DNA of 64,000 bases from Patescibacteria group bacterium (GTDB lineage Bacteria; Patescibacteriota; Microgenomatia; UBA12405), in NCBI GenBank assembly GCA_038062455.1, contig JBBTXE010000001.1:381760-445759 (forward strand). Direction: 5' to 3'. Of this stretch, positions 1 through 13,719 are shown one piece after another. How positions within the stretch are numbered: the first letter of the stretch is position 1; every line of letters begins with the position of its first letter. Under the pieces are notes generated by a model. The model saw only the letters and a list, made by a program, of their open reading frames with translations. It made no database searches and was not told the origin of the DNA. The translations under genes were made by a program, and so were the position numbers.

Positions 1-1065
1 AATTTTCTGACATCCCTAAACTGGCCCCATTCCCGCCAATATGTCAGTCTCTTTAACGAACCCAATCAGGGTAAAGAATGGGGTGGGGGAGTCGACGCCA
101 AAAACTATGCCGAAATCTCCATCTATGCCGCCAAACGTCTAAAAGAATCAAACCCTAATTTTTTTGTCTTAAGCGGGGGTCTGGATCTGGCCGCTCCTCA
201 AAAAGCACCCAATTTTGAATCAGCCGGATCCTTCTATCAACAGATTCACCAATATAAACCGGAGTTTTTTGATTTAATTGACGCTTTAGCGTCTCACTCC
301 TATCCCAACCATGGCTTTGTCGGCCTCCCCACTGACAATGGTCAGCATTCCATCCGCGGTTATCAATGGGAATTATCTTTTTTGAAAAATCTTGGAGTTA
401 AAAAAGAACTGCCGGTTTTTATCACTGAAACCGGCTGGCCCCATCGGGAAGGGGAAACCCGGAACAACAGCTTTTATACCTCCAAAACTGCCTCTAAACT
501 TCTACTTACAGCTTTAGATATTTGGCAAAAAGATCCACGTGTTTTAGCTGTCACTCCTTTTATTTTCAATTTTCCTTATCCCCCCTTTGATCACTTTTCC
601 TGGCTGCAAAAAAACGAAACTATTTACCCTGAATACCAAATAATTGTTGACACTCCCAAGTCCAAAAATTCGATCAATCAAATAAACGGGGTTAGGGTCA
701 AGACAATTAATCTGCCTTTAATCATTTTTGCCGGTACCAAATACGCCTCCACCCTCGAACTGGAAAACACCGGCCAGGCTATTTGGGGTGAAACTACTTT
801 TTGCCTAAATCCTTCACCCTCCCCCAACATCACTCTCACCCCTCTTTGCCTTGATCAAACCCGCCATGTTCTCCCCGGCCACTCAATCAAAATTAGTTTT
901 GATTTTCAAATTAACACACCCAATCTTTCCCTAGAAAACTTTTTATCTTGGGACAAATTACCCCGCTACAACCTCTCACCCTTTAGCCCCAACTCCCGTC
1001 TTTACCATCCCCAATCCGACTTTTGGGAAAAAATCACCCAATTTTTTCAAAGGCTTTTTAAATAA
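1..1065 (+). CDS. glycoside hydrolase, clan GH-A (GH5-like) TIM-barrel enzyme; 5' end lies outside the window
   Basis: Frame 1 is open from nt 1 to the TAA at 1063-1065. The translation has NEPN (acid/base-like) and ITETGW (nucleophile-like) motifs typical of clan GH-A. Codon usage is host-like and C-rich. Confidence 0.45.
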   Translation, partial: NFLTSLNWPHSRQYVSLFNEPNQGKEWGGGVDAKNYAEISIYAAKRLKESNPNFFVLSGGLDLAAPQKAPNFESAGSFYQQIHQYKPEFFDLIDALASHSYPNHGFVGLPTDNGQHSIRGYQWELSFLKNLGVKKELPVFITETGWPHREGETRNNSFYTSKTASKLLLTALDIWQKDPRVLAVTPFIFNFPYPPFDHFSWLQKNETIYPEYQIIVDTPKSKNSINQINGVRVKTINLPLIIFAGTKYASTLELENTGQAIWGETTFCLNPSPSPNITLTPLCLDQTRHVLPGHSIKISFDFQINTPNLSLENFLSWDKLPRYNLSPFSPNSRLYHPQSDFWEKITQFFQRLFK

Positions 1066-1067
1066 TT

Positions 1068-1086
1068 TGTGAGCCGTGAGAGACTC
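1068..1086. repeat. 19-bp direct repeat (tgtgagccgtgagagactc) identical to the 3' end of tRNA-Lys at 4584-4602; attL-like
   Basis: Exact 19/19 match to 4584-4602, which covers the acceptor/T-arm 3' end of the tRNA-Lys on the minus strand. Confidence 0.6.
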
Positions 1087-1155
1087 CACATAAAAAAGTT
1101 TCGTGTTATTTGACTTATGAGCTTAATTAATCTAAATTCGTGTACTAAATAAAAT

Positions 1156-2103
1156 ATGGACGGAAGAGAGCAGCTTCTATCACAAATGGTTGATCACCAG
1201 ATATTAATCACTGATCGTTTACGGGAAGACCTCGGCACTCGTGATAAAAGTTGGTTTGATATATATGGAAGAAATTTTGATCCATCGGCAATGATATATC
1301 CGTTGACAATACGAAAGAGTACGGATAAGAAAACGAATCGTGTACCAGATTTATGGGCCATCCGAGCAGTAGCTGCTCATTACTTAGGTATGGCGCATCA
1401 TCCTCCAGTCTTTTTTTGTGACCATCGCTTTGATAATCCCAAACCTACGGAAAGCGACAGGCTTTTATATACTGACTGGGTTGAGTTCTGTCTTACGATG
1501 ACCGGCTTATTAAATTCCCAGGAAATTCAAAAAATTAGATCAAGGGGATGGTGGAACGAAGATATCTCATCGATACCTCCCGAACTTATTAATAAAAAAG
1601 ATGCAAATCTTTCCAATTTTGAAGAGGTTTGTGAAAAAATAGCGTTATGGAAGAAGGAGGGGTGGAAAGTAGCTTTGTTTCATGGAGCTTTTGACCCGGT
1701 TACCCTCACGCATCTGGAAAATGCAACCCATGCTTACTCATATGGGCCGATAACGGGGACTCCGCTAAAGTTAGTAATTGGGTTTGATTCAGATGAATTA
1801 ATACAAAGAAAAGGAAAAAATCGTCCCAGATACCAATTGGATGAAAGAAGAAGTCAGTTTGGTGCGTTTTGGATGGTGGATGGCACAGTTGTCCTGCGAA
1901 CTAATAAACCGACAACAGAAAAATTTGCTTCGGATTATTTAGCCTTAGGGGTTGATTATATTGTTACCACTAATAATCCACATGAAATAAGTACCAGGAG
2001 AGGGGCAATACTAAGATCATGTTTAGAACCGATTATAATACCTGAAAATCCTTTACCAAATGCAACCCAAATCTTGCAAAGAGCCAGATCAAGAAAATTG
2101 TGA
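1156..2103 (+). CDS. hypothetical protein with C-terminal cytidylyltransferase-like (HxGH-type nucleotidyltransferase) domain
   Basis: FHGAFDPVTLTH resembles the G-x-FD-x-x-H-x-G-H signature, and the following SD..RKG..RP pattern is as in RfaE domain II / TagD-type nucleotidyltransferases. The N-terminal ~170 aa are unassigned. Codon usage is atypical. Confidence 0.4.
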   Translation: MDGREQLLSQMVDHQILITDRLREDLGTRDKSWFDIYGRNFDPSAMIYPLTIRKSTDKKTNRVPDLWAIRAVAAHYLGMAHHPPVFFCDHRFDNPKPTESDRLLYTDWVEFCLTMTGLLNSQEIQKIRSRGWWNEDISSIPPELINKKDANLSNFEEVCEKIALWKKEGWKVALFHGAFDPVTLTHLENATHAYSYGPITGTPLKLVIGFDSDELIQRKGKNRPRYQLDERRSQFGAFWMVDGTVVLRTNKPTTEKFASDYLALGVDYIVTTNNPHEISTRRGAILRSCLEPIIIPENPLPNATQILQRARSRKL

Positions 2104-2110
2104 CAAACAA

Positions 2111-2198
2111 GTGATCTTATACAAACAAATTCGAACTCAATTTCGCGAAAACGCATTGTCGTAGCTCACCGCTCGCTATCGCTCGCGGTTCGCCCTGA
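2111..2198. repeat. IR-A left arm (~88 bp) of an inverted-repeat pair; partner is 2862-2948
   Basis: The reverse complement of 2862-2948 matches with ~66 bp perfect identity, then a few mismatches. Confidence 0.7.
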
Positions 2199-2861
2199 TA
2201 TTTTTTCCAAGCGCGATTTTGCTCGCTTCGCGAGCATATAATAACACAAAACTGCTTCAACTCCAAAAACCTAAACCTAACAATGTATGTTTAACGGGTT
2301 ACTGTCGAGTACTCAATCAACACCGTCAACTGGACCTTACCAAATCAAATCCAAATACCCAAATTATTTCTTCACAGATTTTACAATTTCTCCTCCATCC
2401 AAAGTTATCGAATCTCCAGGATTAAGGCGTCCTGTATCTATAACATTTGAACCATTAGCTTGCCTTACTGCTAATTCACAACCTGAGTTAGTACCTCTAA
2501 CAATTCCTACCATTCCGCCTATTGTACCTTCATGTTTATTTTTATCGTCCCGTGTAATCTTATTTACAATTCTCCCTCCCTGCCATATTTCTGCTGGTGC
2601 CATAATTAATCACCTCCTATCTTTGACAGCGATTATACCACTTTTTACTAGTTGAAAATTTTATGCTTAAGTTTTAAATTAAAAATGGACCCAGATATTA
2701 GCGAATTGCTTTTTTTAATGACGCATTCGGACAGAAAGAAGCAATTCGATCTGAGTCCACCGGATGCGTCATTTAAGTTTAAGAAGACAAAATCAGGAAC
2801 AAAAAATTTTTGCGTTTTCTTTTTGACTATCTGTAAAAATTAAGGTGTTCGAGCCGGCATT

Positions 2862-2948
2862 TAGGGCGAACCGCAAGCGTTAGCGAGCGGTGAGCTACGA
2901 CAATGCGTTTTCGCGAAATTGAGTTCGAATTTGTTTGTATAAGATCAC
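2862..2948. repeat. IR-A right arm
   Basis: Reverse complement of 2111-2198. It abuts the IR-B left arm at the shared 'cacac'. Confidence 0.7.
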
Positions 2949-3050
2949 ACTTTCAGATTTCGCAGAGAAGGCGGTGGCAGATGGCCGACTGCCACGCCAA
3001 GATTTGACCGAATCAAAGCCCAAATTGGGGACAAAAGAAAAGCGGAAAGA
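2946..3050. repeat. IR-B left arm (93 bp perfect, ~105 bp with one mismatch) immediately upstream of the recombinase gene
   Basis: Verified base by base: the reverse complement of 4495-4587 equals 2946-3038 exactly. Identity continues to ~3050 with one mismatch. Confidence 0.8.
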
Positions 3051-3081
3051 TAGAACAAAGGCGAAAACGCAAAAATTTTAA

Positions 3082-4647
3082 TTGATAACTGCCATGAAAT
3101 ACATAGCCTATTGCAGAAAGTCCACTGATGAAAAAGACAAGCAAGTTTTGTCAATTGATGCTCAAATAGCAGAACTTAAAGAGTTTGCCAAGAAGCAAAA
3201 CTTGGAAATTTTAGATTTTGTAGTAGAATCTCGCACAGCCAAAGTCCCGGGGCGACCATTGTTTAACGAAATCCTCGTGCGAATTGAGAAAGGTGAAGCT
3301 CAAGGAATTGTCTCTTGGCACCCTGACCGTTTAGCCAGGAATAGTGTGGATGGTGGAAAAATAATCTACTCACTTGATACTGGGAAGCTAGTTGATCTAA
3401 AATTTCCCTCATTTTGGTTTGAGAATTCACCTCAGGGTAAATTTGTACTCAATATTGCTTTTGGACAATCTAAATATTATGTAGATAATCTTAGCGAGAA
3501 TGTTAAGCGTGGAATGAGGCATAAAGTGAGAATTGGAGTCTGGCCTGTTCAAGCACCTCTTGGCTATTTAAATGACAAAAATACTAAAACGATAGTTATT
3601 GACCCTGTAAGATCCAAAATAACCAAAAAGGTTTTTGAGATGTTTGAGTCGGGAAAGCATTCTTTTACCTCAATTTCAGAATATTTGTTTAAACTAGGCA
3701 TAACTACTCGATTGGGGAGAAAACTTAATCCCGATACCATAAAAAGAATGCTTTCAAACAGATTTTACTTAGGTATTCTTAATTACAAAGGAGAGTTACA
3801 TAAAGGAATTCATAAACCCATTATTTCAAAAACGCTTTTTGATTCTGTCCAAAAGCAAATAGTTAAGTTTGAACGACCCAGAGAACATGGTCACGATTTT
3901 CCCTTTGTTGGTTTGGCTAAATGTGGTGAGTGCGGAGCTTCAATTACCGGTGAAGAACATGCTAGAAACTATAAAAATGGGAATTCTCAAACATTTGCAT
4001 ACTATAGATGTACTAAAAAACTTGGGAAATGCAGTCAAAAATACATTTCTCAAGAAGAATTTGAGCATCAATTAAAAGAAGAGTTACTTGATGTTGCCAT
4101 TCCTCAGGGCTGGTGGAGTGATTGGCTAGCTTGGGTTGAAAGAGACAAAATTAACGAGACAAAACTTGCAAGTCAAAGAGTTGTTGAGGTTGGAGAAGAA
4201 ATGCAGGAAGTTGATAGAAAACTAAACAAACTCCTTGATACTTATTTAGACTCAGTGGTTGATGAAGAGCAATACAAGGCAAAGAAAAATGAATTATTTG
4301 AACAAAAACTAAAACTTCAGGAAAAAATATCAAAAATTCAGAGTGGTGGTTCAAGTTGGCTCGAACCTTTCGAAGAGTTCTTAAAAAGCTCAATAAATTG
4401 CGGAAAAATCGCGCTTGGAAAAAATAATTTGCAAGAATTAAGGATTCTTGCAAGAAATGCCGGCTCGAACTTCTTTCTTTCTGAAAAACGCCTTTCTTTT
4501 GTCCCCAATTTGGGCTTTGATTCGGTCAAATCTTGGCGTGGCAGTCGGCCATCTGCCACCGCCTTCTCTGCGAAATCTGAAAGTGTGAGCCGTGAGAGAC
4601 TCGAACTCTCGACCAATCGCTTAAGAGGCGATTGCTCTACCGACTGA
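3082..4647 (+). CDS. large serine recombinase (resolvase/invertase N-terminal catalytic domain + recombinase domain + zinc ribbon + coiled-coil); the C-terminal tail reads through IR-B and into tRNA-Lys
   Basis: YCRKSTDEKDKQ holds the catalytic-Ser motif of serine recombinases. CGECG...YYRCTKKLGKC is a zinc ribbon typical of large serine recombinases, followed by a coiled-coil C-terminus. The stop codon falls only inside the tRNA (4645-4647), so the last ~45 aa are probably read-through. Confidence 0.75.
   Translation: MITAMKYIAYCRKSTDEKDKQVLSIDAQIAELKEFAKKQNLEILDFVVESRTAKVPGRPLFNEILVRIEKGEAQGIVSWHPDRLARNSVDGGKIIYSLDTGKLVDLKFPSFWFENSPQGKFVLNIAFGQSKYYVDNLSENVKRGMRHKVRIGVWPVQAPLGYLNDKNTKTIVIDPVRSKITKKVFEMFESGKHSFTSISEYLFKLGITTRLGRKLNPDTIKRMLSNRFYLGILNYKGELHKGIHKPIISKTLFDSVQKQIVKFERPREHGHDFPFVGLAKCGECGASITGEEHARNYKNGNSQTFAYYRCTKKLGKCSQKYISQEEFEHQLKEELLDVAIPQGWWSDWLAWVERDKINETKLASQRVVEVGEEMQEVDRKLNKLLDTYLDSVVDEEQYKAKKNELFEQKLKLQEKISKIQSGGSSWLEPFEEFLKSSINCGKIALGKNNLQELRILARNAGSNFFLSEKRLSFVPNLGFDSVKSWRGSRPSATAFSAKSESVSRERLELSTNRLRGDCSTD
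4485..4587. repeat. IR-B right arm, abutting the tRNA-Lys 3' end
   Basis: Reverse complement of 2946-3050. Confidence 0.8.
4584..4602. repeat. 19-bp direct repeat copy within the tRNA-Lys 3' end (attR-like)
   Basis: Identical to 1068-1086. Confidence 0.6.
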
Positions 4648-4658
4648 GCTAACGGCTC
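4586..4658 (-). tRNA. tRNA-Lys (anticodon CTT)
   Basis: Cloverleaf read from the reverse complement: acceptor GAGCCGT/ACGGCTC, D-arm GCTCAGTCGGTAGAGC, anticodon loop CTCTTAA, T-arm GAGAGTTCGAGTCTCTC. Confidence 0.8.
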
Positions 4659-4661
4659 GTG

Positions 4662-4733
4662 TGCGCCTAGGGGGAATCGAACCCTCATCACTAGTTCCGA
4701 AGACTAGGACTCTATCCGTTGAGCTATAGGCGC
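4662..4733 (-). tRNA. tRNA-Arg (anticodon TCG)
   Basis: Reverse complement gives acceptor GCGCCTA/TAGGCGC, anticodon stem CTAGT with loop CTTCGGA, and T-loop TTCGATT. Confidence 0.7.
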
Positions 4734-4750
4734 CATTATAACGAATATTA

Positions 4751-4826
4751 GGTATCCCCAGCAGGGATCGAACCTGCGGCCTTCTCCTTAGAGGGGAGAC
4801 GCTCTATCCAACTGAGCTATGGGGAC
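4751..4826 (-). tRNA. tRNA-Arg (anticodon TCT)
   Basis: Reverse complement gives acceptor GTCCCCA/TGGGGAT, D-arm GCTCAGTTGGATAGAGC, anticodon loop CCTCTAA, and T-arm GCAGGTTCGATCCCTGC. Confidence 0.75.
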
Positions 4827-12708: not shown

Positions 12709-13719
12709 ATGAACCTAGACCGAATTAAAAAACAAATCGCCAATATCACTACCGCTGCCGAGTTGGAAAAAATCCGCGTTGAACTTCTCGGCCGAAACGG
12801 TCTTCTCAATAAACTCTTTTCCGAAATCAAAACCGCCCCCAACCCCAAACAATACGGTGCTACCCTAAATCAACAAAAAAAAGAAATTGAAGAATTAATC
12901 TCTGTTAAACAAAAAACTCTTTCTCCTGAAATTAGAAATTTGAAACCTGCCCGTCCGGCAGGCGGGTTAGAAATTGAAAATTCCCAATTTAGTTTACCTA
13001 AATTGGGTCACCTCCATCCCATTACCATCACCGAACGTCAAGTAAATGAAATTTTCCGAAAGTTAGGATTTTCTTTGTACGATGGTCCCGAAATCGAAAC
13101 TGATGAATTTTGCTTCCAACGCATGAACGTCCCCCAAAACCACCCTTCTCGAGAAATGCAAGACAGCATTTATATTCACGAACCCGAATATCTACTCCGT
13201 ACTCAAACGTCAAGCATAGAAGCCCGGCTTTTAGCCCAGGAAAAACCACCCTTTAAAGCTGCCTTCCCAGGTCGTACTTATCGTAACGAAAAAGTTACTA
13301 AAAGTAATCACTTCATCTTTCACCAATATCAAGGTGTTGCGATTGATAAAAATATAACCCTTAAAGACTCGATTGGCACTTTTAACACTCTTTTTAAAGA
13401 GCTTTACGGTAACGATGTTCATGCTCGCTATCGTTGTAAATATTATCCGGAAGTTGAACCTGGAATGGGATTTGATTTAGAATGTTTTAACTGTCACGGT
13501 GTTGGTTGTTCAATCTGTAAAGGAGCTGGCTGGATTGAGATGGGTGGAGCTGGGATTATTCATCCCCAAGTCCTGACCATGGCCGGAATTGATCCAAAAA
13601 TCTGGCGCGGTTTCGCTTTCGCCCTTGGTCTTGACCGTTGGGTTATGGCCAAATTTAATATCACCGATATTCGCACTTTACTTGGTGGCAATCTCGCCTA
13701 CAAACCAAATCAACTATGA
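12709..13719 (+). CDS. pheS: phenylalanyl-tRNA synthetase alpha subunit, with a Cys4 (CxxC..CxxC) insertion
   Basis: FPGRTYRNEKVTKSNHFIFHQYQGV is class II motif 2, and GMGFD...GAGIIHPQV is motif 3. Between them sits the insertion CFNCHGVGCSICKGAGW. Confidence 0.85.
   Translation: MNLDRIKKQIANITTAAELEKIRVELLGRNGLLNKLFSEIKTAPNPKQYGATLNQQKKEIEELISVKQKTLSPEIRNLKPARPAGGLEIENSQFSLPKLGHLHPITITERQVNEIFRKLGFSLYDGPEIETDEFCFQRMNVPQNHPSREMQDSIYIHEPEYLLRTQTSSIEARLLAQEKPPFKAAFPGRTYRNEKVTKSNHFIFHQYQGVAIDKNITLKDSIGTFNTLFKELYGNDVHARYRCKYYPEVEPGMGFDLECFNCHGVGCSICKGAGWIEMGGAGIIHPQVLTMAGIDPKIWRGFAFALGLDRWVMAKFNITDIRTLLGGNLAYKPNQL

What the first reader, a model, noticed from the sequence alone, without database searches (positions are those of the whole stretch)
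2111..4587. Two abutting segments each bounded by long, near-perfect inverted repeats; the serine recombinase gene sits inside a ~100-bp perfect inverted-repeat pair
IR-B left (2946-3038) is base-for-base the reverse complement of IR-B right (4495-4587): 93 bp perfect, ~105 bp with one mismatch. The pair brackets only the recombinase gene. Immediately to the left, a second unrelated pair, IR-A (2111-2198 / 2862-2948, ~88 bp), brackets an 840-bp segment with no convincing gene. The two units touch at a shared 'cacac'. Known serine-recombinase transposons do not have long terminal inverted repeats, and serine integrase att sites share only short cores. Perfect 100-bp inverted repeats around a self-contained recombinase gene suggest either a new IS-like unit with serine-recombinase transposase and long TIRs, or a recombinase-containing invertible segment like hin inside the H segment, kept identical by inversion or gene conversion. 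The IR-A unit then looks like a non-autonomous MITE-like derivative.
Basis: seen in the sequence. Interest (0 to 1): 0.6.

Follow-up and report, generated by a model that had tools for sequence, protein, structure and literature searches.

The report
tRNA-targeting recombinase element with duplicated attachment site
The two abutting inverted-repeat units are the recombinase module and the cargo module of one small mobile element that a large serine recombinase has inserted into the 3' end of a tRNA-Lys gene. It belongs to a very large family in Patescibacteria that I could not find described, and its unusual feature is a second, inverted copy of its own attachment site.

Summary
IR-B is 2945-3044 / 4489-4588 (100 nt, 1 mismatch). 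IR-A is 2111-2196 / 2863-2948 (86 nt, 2 mismatches). They overlap by 4 nt (TCAC), and three independent assemblies carry the identical structure.

It is a family trait. In 166 Patescibacteria loci (175 gene copies), 90 of 97 fully flanked recombinase genes sit between 44-160 nt inverted repeats (median identity 98%). In 119 copies the right arm ends in the 3' end of a convergent tRNA gene, and the repeat starts at tRNA nucleotide 71 in all but a few. Left of the left arm there is usually a conserved T-loop mimic ("psi"), whatever the tRNA.

IR-A right plus IR-B left therefore form one intact copy of the element's attachment region (psi-core-b). IR-B right and IR-A left are the two halves of a second copy, split by integration.

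IR-A is a cargo cassette, not a MITE. It holds a real 79-aa gene, and other loci carry other cargo such as restriction-modification or LexA-like genes.

A nested insertion shows the two units inserted together as one block, with at most 1-2 shared bases at the junctions. What the resident inverted copy does is not settled. Both recombinase orientations occur in the family (119 vs 3 next to a tRNA), but I found no inversion polymorphism in this population.

The parts
2111..2196 (.). IR-A left = far 'psi' arm. Its outer tip 2111-2114 (GTGA) is the reverse complement of the core. This is the element's distal junction with host DNA (attR-like: psi-core|host). The host gene's stop codon is at 2101-2103.
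   Evidence: repeat; homology to L004 starts exactly at 2111; the far junction is psi+core|host in 20 loci.
2199..2220 (.). Short repeat 'c', the reverse complement of 4405-4426 (22 nt, 100%).
   Evidence: The same pairing is seen in L004, L032, L050 and L058.
2364..2603 (-). Cargo gene: 79-aa protein with a strong ribosome-binding site and no Pfam or PHROG family.
   Evidence: 12 homologues of 65-77 aa; chromosomal homologues lie between uvrB and lexA.
2803..2819 (.). Short repeat 'e', a perfect reverse complement of 3063-3079. Together they bracket the internal attachment-region copy.
   Evidence: Read. The same kind of pair occurs in at least 12 loci. The e' motif is conserved.
2863..2948 (+). 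IR-A right = internal psi arm. It holds a GC hairpin, then the T-loop mimic TTCGAAT (2924-2930), 14 nt, then the core TCAC (2945-2948).
2945..3044 (+). IR-B left = internal 'b' arm: core, then the GATTTCG motif, then the GC hairpin 2970-2998, then the conserved inner block CAAAGCCCAAATTGGGG. With 2863-2948 it forms one intact, inverted copy of the attachment region (psi-core-b).
   Evidence: hairpin, z = -2.4. (compensatory changes versus L004)..
3063..3079 (.). Short repeat e' (GAAAACGCAAAAATTTT), 14 nt upstream of the recombinase start. It is the best conserved non-coding block in the family.
3094..4647 (+). Large serine recombinase gene (517-aa ORF). The functional domains end at about 4488; the last 53 codons are the right arm plus antisense tRNA.
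   Evidence: PF00239, PF07508, PF13408.. (distant from SPbeta SprA and A118 Int).
4405..4480 (.). Repeats c' (4405-4426) and d' (4455-4480) inside the 3' end of the gene. On the tRNA strand there is a terminator-like hairpin at 4453-4429 followed by a T-run.
4489..4588 (-). IR-B right = tRNA-proximal b arm (attL-like junction tRNA|b). Its tip 4585-4588 is tRNA nucleotides 74-71.
4585..4658 (-). tRNA-Lys(CTT), the integration target; the gene is intact. T-loop TTCGAGT, then 10 nt, then the crossover core starting at nucleotide 71.

Best explanation
Positions 2111-4588 are one ~2.5-kb integrative element of a large Patescibacteria family.

Integration (inferred). Its large serine recombinase inserts it into the 3' end of tRNA genes, here tRNA-Lys(CTT). 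The crossover falls at or just after tRNA nucleotide 71, and the element supplies a replacement 3' end. The element's attachment region is psi-core-b. 'psi' is an arm that ends in a mimic of the tRNA T-loop and acceptor, with 14 nt between TTCGAAT and the core instead of the 10 nt of a real tRNA. 'core' equals tRNA nucleotides 71-76, or 71-73 plus one base where CCA is not encoded. 'b' is an arm that carries a GC hairpin.

Two copies (shown). The element holds two copies of this region in inverted orientation. One copy is split by integration: its b half lies next to the tRNA (IR-B right) and its psi half lies at the far end next to host DNA (IR-A left). The other copy is intact and lies between the recombinase gene and the cargo (IR-A right + IR-B left).

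Status of each step. Shown: the anatomy, its generality, the position of the junctions, the block insertion, and that arms within a locus are more alike than arms between loci. Inferred: that the recombinase makes a 2-bp staggered crossover at the core between psi-core-b and tRNA|downstream. This rests on what serine recombinases are known to do.

Role of the resident copy (speculative). It makes the free form a circle with two identical inverted sites, like the 2-micron plasmid. Either site could then integrate, and the recombinase segment could lie in either orientation. The hairpins in the arms may shield the recombinase gene from outside transcription. The arms are probably kept alike by gene conversion.
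For: Recombinase: the protein has the three large-serine-recombinase domains.

Generality: 175 gene copies in 166 loci. 90 of 97 fully flanked copies have flanking repeats (median 105 nt, 98.1% identity). 119 abut a convergent tRNA of many identities.

Junction position: in 38 of the 46 junctions listed the right arm overlaps the tRNA 3' end by 4-6 nt, so the repeat starts at about tRNA nucleotide 71.

Psi arm: the conserved block GAAAT..GTTCGAATTT.TTC lies left of the left arm whatever the tRNA.

Far junction: it reads psi+core|host in 20 loci.

Block mobility: the window and L004 share 2111 through the tRNA but not their flanks. In L058 the block psi-X-psi + b-rec-b sits inside another recombinase gene that is intact in L052 and L046. 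There is at most a 1-2 nt overlap at the junctions, and a T-loop-like TTCGACT lies 10 nt from the junction.

Target specificity: the same insertion point recurs in 11 fusion proteins. Non-tRNA targets also carry GGTTCGA-like motifs about 10 nt from the junction. Related elements (87% identity) sit at different tRNAs: Tyr, Leu, Lys, Arg.

Arrays: they alternate b-ended and psi-ended segments (L084, L073).

Orientation: both orientations of the recombinase segment exist.

Arm similarity: arms are more alike within a locus (median 98.4%) than to the nearest other locus (94.6%; 61 of 84). In 44 loci the arms align to no other locus yet are 98.3% alike within.

Hairpins: they are kept by compensatory changes.

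Not an artefact.
Against: No empty site and no circular junction was found for this particular insertion; relatives are not syntenic.

About half of the loci with at least 3 kb of upstream sequence show no far psi arm within 4-10 kb, so the distal boundary is undefined there.

Characterised large serine integrases recombine only attP with attB. A resident intact attP has no known role and should be hazardous.

If the two site copies were equivalent, both orientations should be equally common, yet the ratio next to tRNAs is 119:3.

Dyad symmetry of psi|b, which is expected for a serine-integrase site, is weak across the family.

The recombinase is only about 25% identical to any characterised integrase, so rules taken from those enzymes may not apply.
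Confidence: 0.6

Rival explanations
1. Dedicated invertible segment (hin-like). The main activity of the recombinase is to flip the 1.4-kb segment between the two b arms, and perhaps the cargo segment between the psi arms. This switches the recombinase gene between a silent state, convergent with the tRNA, and a state read from the tRNA promoter. Inversion and associated gene conversion keep the arms identical.
For: The two junctions tRNA-core-b and psi-core-b are inverted copies of one site type with identical cores, so a serine recombinase could only invert between them (inference from central-dinucleotide polarity). Closely related units occur in both orientations (L071 vs L082, 91% identity; L084; about 6 of 120 homologue tails read into antisense psi). 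The arms show higher identity within loci than between loci, and patchy identity in L039.
Against: The orientation ratio is 119:3 next to tRNAs. L071 and L082 have unrelated flanks, so they are separate insertions rather than an in-place flip. The flipped form of this window's protein is absent from the protein collection, and all 7 contigs have one orientation. Inversion changes no junction and no known gene product except the C-terminal tail. Known invertases are small serine recombinases with 26-34 bp sites.
Confidence: 0.2
2. Autonomous IS-like element. The unit 2945-4588 alone is the transposon, with 100-bp terminal inverted repeats bound by a serine-recombinase transposase. It inserts between a tRNA 3' end and a pre-existing psi sequence. 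IR-A is a separate, older insertion.
For: The recombinase segment has two identical ends and can lie in either orientation. In L039 it lies between two real convergent tRNA-Glu genes with no psi. Psi arms can be 99% identical between loci whose recombinase units are only 88% identical and whose cargo differs, so the modules reassort (L026 vs L032).
Against: A circle closed by a b|b joint would have a palindromic central dinucleotide and would leave the same complementary base outside both tips. The observed flanking bases differ (e.g. ACGT|TCACCA vs GGGC|TCACCA). With a polar 2-bp core, a segment with two b ends cannot enter a tRNA|downstream site without a partner that has two psi ends (inference). 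Psi is present next to the left arm in nearly all loci and is conserved with the unit. The only clean filled-versus-empty comparison shows both units inserted as a block.
Confidence: 0.12
3. Immobile relic. This copy is a domesticated or decaying integrated island that no longer moves, and the repeats persist only through RecA-type gene conversion between nearby inverted copies.
For: All seven contigs from the source site show the same arrangement. No circular or empty form was found. Some loci have diverged arms (83-93%) or no detectable arms (L029, L030, L077).
Against: The recombinase ORF is intact here and in nearly all 80 genome loci. The arms are 98-99% identical here. The genome carries a second, different family member at tRNA-Ser. 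Nested insertions and many different tRNA targets show recent activity in the family.
Confidence: 0.06
4. Assembly artefact (palindromic chimeric reads collapsed into repeats).
For: Many contigs that carry family members end at the arms.
Against: The 2.7-kb structure is identical in three independent assemblies, on contigs of 75-276 kb. The same architecture is found in more than 120 loci from unrelated studies.
Confidence: 0.01

Closest known systems
Phage and ICE large serine integrases (A118/LI Int, SPbeta SprA, phiC31, Bxb1)
   Same: Same three-domain enzyme class. Insertion at a specific short site without a target duplication. The element-side site resembles the target half-site with a shifted motif: 14 vs 10 nt. 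I recall from Rutherford et al. 2013 that attP and attB half-sites of such enzymes differ by about 5 bp in this way; I did not check this here.
   Different: Only about 25% identity. The target is the 3' end of many different tRNA genes. The integrated element keeps a second intact copy of its attachment region, extended to about 190 bp and inverted, so the recombinase gene is flanked by ~100-bp near-identical repeats. No recombination directionality factor is evident. The family is almost absent from viral contigs.
Serine-recombinase transposons Tn4451 (TnpX) and Tn5397 (TndX)
   Same: A large serine recombinase acts as the only mobility protein of a small element that carries cargo. Insertion and excision without a directionality factor is known for these (from my own knowledge) and would allow the recombination between like sites that is proposed here.
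   Different: Those elements have short imperfect end repeats, no internal site copy, and do not target tRNA genes. Membership was not tested by phylogeny.
Hin/Gin/Cin/Pin invertible segments
   Same: The recombinase gene (as in hin) lies inside a segment bounded by inverted copies of its recombination site. Both orientations are seen in the family.
   Different: Invertases are ~190-aa small serine recombinases with 26-34 bp sites and an enhancer. Here the enzyme is a 465+ aa large serine recombinase, the repeats are 75-160 nt, the unit is mobile and tRNA-targeted, and no orientation polymorphism was found in this population.
tRNA-targeting genomic islands, including tycheposons of Prochlorococcus (bioRxiv 10.1101/2020.12.28.424599, listed)
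   Same: The integrase lies next to the tRNA 3' end, there is variable cargo (defence genes, repressors), the far end repeats the tRNA terminus, and arrays build up at one tRNA.
   Different: The identity segment is only 4-6 nt. The far end is a conserved element-borne mimic, not the displaced tRNA end. The inverted internal site copy and the strict alternation of b-ended and psi-ended segments have no counterpart that I know of.
Yeast 2-micron plasmid (FLP with 599-bp inverted repeats)
   Same: The predicted free form is a circle divided into two unique arcs by two identical inverted repeats that contain the recombinase's site, with the recombinase gene in one arc.
   Different: FLP is a tyrosine recombinase on a replicating plasmid. 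This element has no replication genes, and a free circle has not been observed.

Membership tests
Large serine recombinases | N-terminal resolvase catalytic domain with the serine nucleophile | tested here: met
   PF00239, E = 1.9e-19, residues 4-149. The motif Y-x-R-K-S-T-D-E is invariant in alignment A1.
Large serine recombinases | Recombinase domain plus zinc-ribbon domain after the catalytic domain | tested here: met
   PF07508 (E = 1.3e-15) and PF13408 (E = 4e-11). Distant match to SPbeta SprA and A118 integrase structures.
Large serine recombinases | Catalyses site-specific recombination with a 2-bp staggered cut | not testable with these tools
   Indirect only: the nested insertion shows at most a 1-2 nt overlap at the junctions and no duplication.
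Serine-integrase type integrative element (attP x attB) | Element inserted at a specific site, with junctions that are hybrids of an element site and a target site | tested here: met
   The three junction types tRNA-core-b, psi-core-b and psi-core-host. Filled versus empty site: L058 vs L052/L046.
Serine-integrase type integrative element (attP x attB) | A single attachment site per element, consumed on integration | tested here: not met
   A second intact inverted copy (2863-3044) remains in the integrated element. This is general in the family.
Serine-integrase type integrative element (attP x attB) | Pseudo-palindromic ~50-bp sites | tested here: inconclusive
   Clear in some loci (e.g. L018, read), but the family-wide dyad score is only about 2 sd above background at the core.
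tRNA-targeting genomic island | Integrase gene adjacent to the 3' end of an intact tRNA gene | tested here: met
   tRNA-Lys 4585-4658 is intact (73.5 bits). 119 of 175 copies abut a tRNA.
tRNA-targeting genomic island | Far end carries a direct repeat of the tRNA 3' end | tested here: met
   Only the 4-6 nt core is repeated, preceded by the element's T-loop mimic.
IS / transposon with terminal inverted repeats | The terminal repeats are the outer ends of the mobile unit, and insertion is flanked by a target-site duplication | tested here: not met
   The mobile block in L058 ends in one psi tip and one b tip, with no duplication. The left b arm is internal.
MITE (for IR-A) | Short non-coding element whose terminal repeats match those of an autonomous partner, in multiple copies | tested here: not met
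   The IR-A arms are unrelated to IR-B. The unit encodes a conserved 79-aa protein. There is no other copy in the window. Equivalent units carry 0.6-3.7 kb of varied genes.
Hin/Gin-type invertible segment | Small serine invertase with a C-terminal helix-turn-helix | tested here: not met
   517-aa ORF with the large-serine-recombinase architecture.
Hin/Gin-type invertible segment | Both orientations coexist in a population | tested here: inconclusive
   All 7 contigs have one orientation, and the predicted flipped protein is absent from the collection. No read data were available. Both orientations exist across the family.

The most novel reading that the evidence does not exclude
The family is a two-part cassette system. 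Because the crossover core has a fixed polarity, every junction joins a tRNA-like end (a real tRNA or psi) to a b-type or host end. Recombinase modules (two b ends) and cargo modules (two psi ends) can therefore only alternate, and they can be flipped, exchanged and stacked at tRNA genes, giving an integron-like gene-capture platform in Patescibacteria. The resident intact attachment site also recombines with other tRNA genes and so drives tRNA-to-tRNA chromosomal rearrangements (L039 would be one such product). One sublineage has turned this machinery against rival recombinase genes.
Probability: 0.25. Interest if true: 0.8.

Novelty: new variant of a known kind. Interest (0 to 1): 0.65.

Why it matters
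Patescibacteria (CPR) have tiny genomes, and little is known about their mobile elements. This family has more than 7,000 recombinase homologues in the protein collection, often with several copies per genome, and its cargo includes restriction-modification and repressor genes. It is therefore probably a main route of gene gain at tRNA genes in this phylum.

Large serine recombinases are also sought as genome-integration tools. A natural family that reads the near-universal tRNA T-loop plus a 2-6 nt programmable core, with defined element-side sites, gives many enzyme and site pairs that can be tested directly.

The resident inverted site copy, the close similarity of 100-nt arms over long evolutionary time, and the sublineage that homes into rival recombinase genes are each testable questions about how serine recombinases control direction and partner choice.

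Tried and rejected
(1) Assembly artefact: rejected, because the structure is identical in three assemblies.

(2) Empty site for this insertion: I fetched the three best long-contig orthologue loci of the left flanking gene (66% identity). None is syntenic and none has tRNA-Lys downstream.

(3) Inversion polymorphism: I built the protein predicted after flipping 3045-4488 (tail ...SVILYKQIRTQFRENALS) and looked it up by exact sequence. It is not present.

(4) Recombinase unit as a circle with a perfectly palindromic b|b site inserted into tRNA|psi: rejected, because the bases just outside the two tips are not the complementary pair this model requires.

(5) Crossover in the T-loop (TTCGAA centre): rejected, because the adjacent tRNAs are intact.

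(6) Psi arm as a tRNA or known RNA: no Rfam hit, and its T-arm register cannot fold.

(7) Family-wide dyad symmetry of psi|b: only weak, so I do not rely on it.

(8) Phage origin: only 5 marginal hits in 2.9 million viral contigs, and about 25% identity to phage integrases.

(9) Link between arm identity and recombinase integrity: not testable, because nearly all sampled genes are intact.

(10) Far psi arm in loci without a second repeat pair: searched with a local aligner, and none was found within 3.7-9.8 kb in about 30 loci.

(11) Literature: four full-text searches found nothing on this family.

(12) b-arm hairpin as a classical terminator: a clear T-run follows only in some loci (L039, L041), so this stays a suggestion.
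Full report

Yes. The repeat finder gives IR-B as 2945-3044 / 4489-4588 (100 nt, one mismatch) and IR-A as 2111-2196 / 2863-2948 (86 nt, two mismatches). The two pairs overlap by four bases, TCAC at 2945-2948. No other inverted repeat in the 64-kb window comes close; the next is 44 nt at 80%.

The exact recombinase protein occurs on seven contigs. The three that were fetched come from different assemblies (an NCBI MAG and two ENA assemblies, contigs of 75-276 kb) and are 100% identical to the window over 2000-4700. That rules out a chimeric-read artefact.

- The recombinase ORF (3094-4647; Resolvase + Recombinase + zinc-ribbon domains) has no stop codon inside the unit. It reads through the right arm into the antisense of tRNA-Lys(CTT), which lies at 4585-4658 on the minus strand.
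- The IR-A unit contains a good gene: 79 aa, 2364-2603 on the minus strand, with GGAGGTGA eight bases upstream of the ATG and twelve homologues of 65-77 aa.

**2. The architecture is a family trait.**

The recombinase has more than 7,000 homologues, and the named ones are from Patescibacteria. I fetched 80 loci from species-representative genomes, 80 from metagenomes and a few more. Together they hold 175 gene copies in 166 loci.

- Of 97 copies with enough sequence on both sides, 90 are flanked by an inverted repeat of 44-160 nt. The median length is 105 nt and the median identity 98.1%; 22 pairs are perfect.
- 119 copies have a convergent tRNA gene abutting the 3' end of the recombinase gene. 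The tRNAs include Lys, Glu, Leu, Trp, Pro, Arg, Val, Tyr, Gln, Gly, Ser, Asn and His.
- 52 copies have a second repeat pair whose right arm abuts the left arm of the first, as in the window. These enclose 556-3732 bp.
- Many homologue proteins end in peptides such as GFEPSTxSLRGxCST, which are translated antisense tRNA.

**3. Anatomy of the junctions.**

*The tRNA junction.* In 38 of the 46 junctions listed, the right arm overlaps the tRNA 3' end by 4-6 nt. That places the start of the repeat at about tRNA nucleotide 71. The shared tip is nucleotides 71-76 (for example TCACCA, GCACCA, CAGCCA) where CCA is encoded, and nucleotides 71-73 plus one base where it is not, as here (T71 C72 A73 C = TCAC).

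*The internal junction.* The sequence just left of the left arm is conserved across loci whatever the tRNA. Its consensus is ..TTGGAAATAAGTTCGAATTTTTTCATAAA.. followed by the tip. I call it psi because it mimics the T-loop and acceptor side of a tRNA. Between TTCGAAT and the tip it has 14 nt, where a real tRNA has 10. In the window it is the end of IR-A right (TTCGAAT at 2924-2930).

*The far junction.* In the 20 genome-scan loci with a second repeat pair, the outer end of that unit reads psi + tip | host.

So there are three junction types: tRNA-core-b, psi-core-b and psi-core-host. The internal junction (IR-A right + IR-B left, 2863-3044) is a complete copy of what the two outer ends would form if they were joined.

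**4. What moves.**

- The window and L004 (recombinase 85% identical, next to a different tRNA-Lys gene) are homologous from exactly 2111 to the tRNA and nowhere else.
- In L058 a block made of psi-cargo-psi plus b-rec-b (869-4565) interrupts another recombinase gene that is intact in L052 and L046. The flanks rejoin with at most a 1-2 nt overlap and no duplication. On the tRNA-equivalent strand the target reads TTCGACT + 10 nt + junction, the same spacing as in a tRNA.
- The same insertion point (...L|AFGQSKYY) is seen in all 11 homologues of 700 aa or more among the best 120. Each is one recombinase lineage fused in frame to the 3' part of a different victim gene.
- Other non-tRNA targets also show GGTTCGA-like motifs about 10 nt from the junction.
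- Related elements (about 87% identity) sit at tRNA-Tyr, tRNA-Leu, tRNA-Lys and tRNA-Arg genes whose last bases match the element's core.

These results point to site-specific insertion with the crossover at the arm tips. The recognition element is the T-loop, and the IR-A + IR-B block is the inserted unit. That the enzyme makes a 2-bp staggered crossover is inferred from what serine recombinases are known to do; it is not shown here.

**5. The segment grammar.**

If the core has a polarity, any recombination among such sites can only produce junctions of the form {tRNA or psi}-core-{b or host}. The data fit this:
- Recombinase segments always have two b ends and cargo segments always have two psi ends.
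- Arrays alternate. L084 reads tRNA-Lys|b1 rec1 b1|psi X psi|b2 rec2 b2|psi'.... L073 reads rec' b|psi X psi|b rec b|tRNA-Asn, where the repeat is the whole 289-nt psi+b module.
- A recombinase segment alone could not enter a tRNA|downstream site.
- A circle closed by a b|b joint is also excluded, because the bases just outside the two tips are not the complementary pair such a palindromic site would leave.

This is why I reject the reading of a free-standing IS with terminal inverted repeats.

**6. Cargo.**

The psi-bounded units carry unrelated genes: membrane proteins, a methyltransferase, an oxidoreductase, a helix-turn-helix protein and others. Left of the internal copy, other loci carry restriction-modification genes, LexA-like repressors, an ABC ATPase and a complete type I restriction system.

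Psi arms can be 99% identical between loci whose cargo differs completely (L026 vs L032). Pairs with about 91% identical recombinase genes share only about 130-800 nt to the left of the gene.

The window's 79-aa protein has chromosomal homologues located between uvrB and lexA. So IR-A is a cargo cassette, not a MITE.

**7. Properties of the arms.**

Every b arm has a strong GC-rich hairpin 25-35 nt from the tip; 27 of 45 fold with z below -2. The window and L004 differ by 17-18% in the b arm, yet each genome's two arms are 99-100% alike, and the hairpin is kept by paired changes (GTGGCAG/CTGCCAC vs GTGCCAG/CTGGCAC). The two psi arms of L058 differ by 13%, again with paired changes in their hairpin.

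Across 84 loci with an alignable neighbour, within-locus arm identity (median 98.4%) exceeds that of the nearest other locus (94.6%) in 61 cases. Another 44 loci have arms alignable to no other locus yet are 98.3% alike within. So the arms of a locus stay alike while lineages diverge, which is concerted evolution. L039 shows a patchy pattern: 60 identical bases next to a diverged patch. That pattern suggests gene conversion, but the mechanism is not established.

Short extra repeats bracket each copy of the attachment region:
- e/e' at 2803-2819 / 3063-3079. The e' motif AAAACGCAAAAATTT is the best conserved non-coding block upstream of the gene.
- c/c' at 2199-2220 / 4405-4426.

On the tRNA strand, a terminator-like hairpin plus T-run lies at 4453-4419. 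The idea that the arms insulate the recombinase gene from outside transcription is an inference only.

**8. Orientation and inversion.**

Next to tRNAs the recombinase gene is convergent with the tRNA in 119 copies and co-directional in 3 (L039, L077, L082).

L082 and L071 carry 91% identical units at tRNA-Asn. In L082 the real tRNA occupies the upstream position that psi holds in L071. Their flanks are unrelated, so these are separate insertions, not an in-place flip.

About six of 120 homologue tails read into antisense psi (EQIRTQF-type), as rec2 of L084 does.

For the window itself I found no sign of inversion. All contigs have one orientation, and the predicted flipped protein is not in the 15-billion-protein collection.

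So both orientations are possible states in the family. Whether they arise by inversion or by use of either site copy at integration, and why one state dominates, remain open.

**9. Comparison with known systems.**

The enzyme is a large serine recombinase by every domain test. It is only about 25% identical to characterised phage and plasmid members, and the family is almost absent from viral contigs.

- *Serine-integrase elements and tRNA-targeting genomic islands:* it works like these, with a specific target, no duplication, the integrase next to the tRNA, cargo, and a repeat of the tRNA end at the far side.
- *How it differs from them:* it keeps a second, intact, inverted and extended copy of its attachment region. 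Its arms stay alike within a locus. It reads the T-loop and so has many tRNA targets.
- *Hin/Gin segments:* the resemblance is only that the gene lies between inverted copies of its site.
- *The 2-micron plasmid:* the resemblance is only in the predicted topology of a free circle.

Four full-text searches found no description of the family. This does not prove that none exists.

**10. Verdict.**

The finding is real and more interesting than a single odd locus. I rate it a new variant of a known kind: a serine-recombinase integrative element.

Confidence is high for the anatomy and for tRNA-end targeting. It is moderate for the integration model. It is low for the function of the resident inverted site. 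The main gaps are the lack of an empty site or a circle for this copy, the missing far arm in about half of the loci, and the unexplained orientation bias.

Noticed in passing
L058 869-4565 vs L052 ~4362 and L046 ~4357; proteins P0001, P0011-P0013, P0016, P0022, P0023, P0028, P0032, P0035, P0045: One recombinase sublineage (its own motif is FGQAKYY) is repeatedly found inserted at the identical point ...L|AFGQSKYY of other, diverse family recombinase genes. In L058 the victim's Ser codon TCG creates an antisense T-loop-like TTTCGACT, while the invader has Ala (GCT) at that position. This looks like an element that homes into rival elements and is itself immune.
   Followed up: partly
window 2364-2603(-); L094-L099; L017 918-2516, L048 1056-1652: The 79-aa cargo protein has chromosomal homologues that lie between uvrB and lexA in other Patescibacteria. 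LexA-like repressor genes (one fused to a DNA methylase) recur in the cargo or left flank of at least four other family loci. This suggests a link between these elements and the SOS response.
   Followed up: partly
window 4751-4826(-): ARAGORN calls this tRNA 'Pyl (cta)'. The best helix register gives an anticodon loop CCTCTAA, i.e. anticodon TCT (Arg) with an unusual C33. TAG ends 10 of 35 long ORFs in the window, so there is no sign of recoding.
   Followed up: partly
L039 3796-5582: A recombinase unit lies between two real, convergent tRNA-Glu genes (TTC and CTC) with no psi. Its b arms are a mosaic of 60 identical bases next to a diverged patch, and they carry a clear hairpin + TTTTTT terminator. 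This is the product expected if the resident internal site recombined with a second tRNA gene.
   Followed up: partly
L087 4784-9654 (same genome as the window): The genome carries a second, 57% identical family member at tRNA-Ser(TGA), with 76-nt b arms and 145-nt psi arms around 2.8 kb of cargo. Here the tRNA-proximal arm ends 64 nt short of the tRNA. About 200 nt just inside the internal psi arm are ~78% identical to window 2675-2877.
   Followed up: partly
window 20080, 40818, 41750, 42267, 43019; 15747, 52045, 53089, 53807; 12169, 22443, 47323, 53460: Three other dispersed repeat families are present: GC hairpins GTCATTCCCGCGAAAGCGGGAAC, palindromes GTAGAGACG..CGTCTCTAC, and TTATACTTAATAC-type AT-rich repeats.
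   Followed up: no
L185 1429-1687 / 12954-13212: A type I restriction-modification island plus recombinase plus tRNA-Glu is bracketed by a 259-nt, 76% inverted repeat made of paralogous gene segments. No far psi arm lies within 9.8 kb.
   Followed up: no
loci: A large share of contigs that carry a family member (roughly a third or more, by eye) end within a few hundred bases of the gene. The arms, or their multiple copies, break short-read assemblies, so copy number per genome is probably underestimated.
   Followed up: no
L091-L093 vs window 1156-2103: The orthologues of the left flanking gene (66% identity) have completely different neighbours and no adjacent tRNA cluster. Gene order around this tRNA cluster is poorly conserved among relatives.
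   Followed up: no
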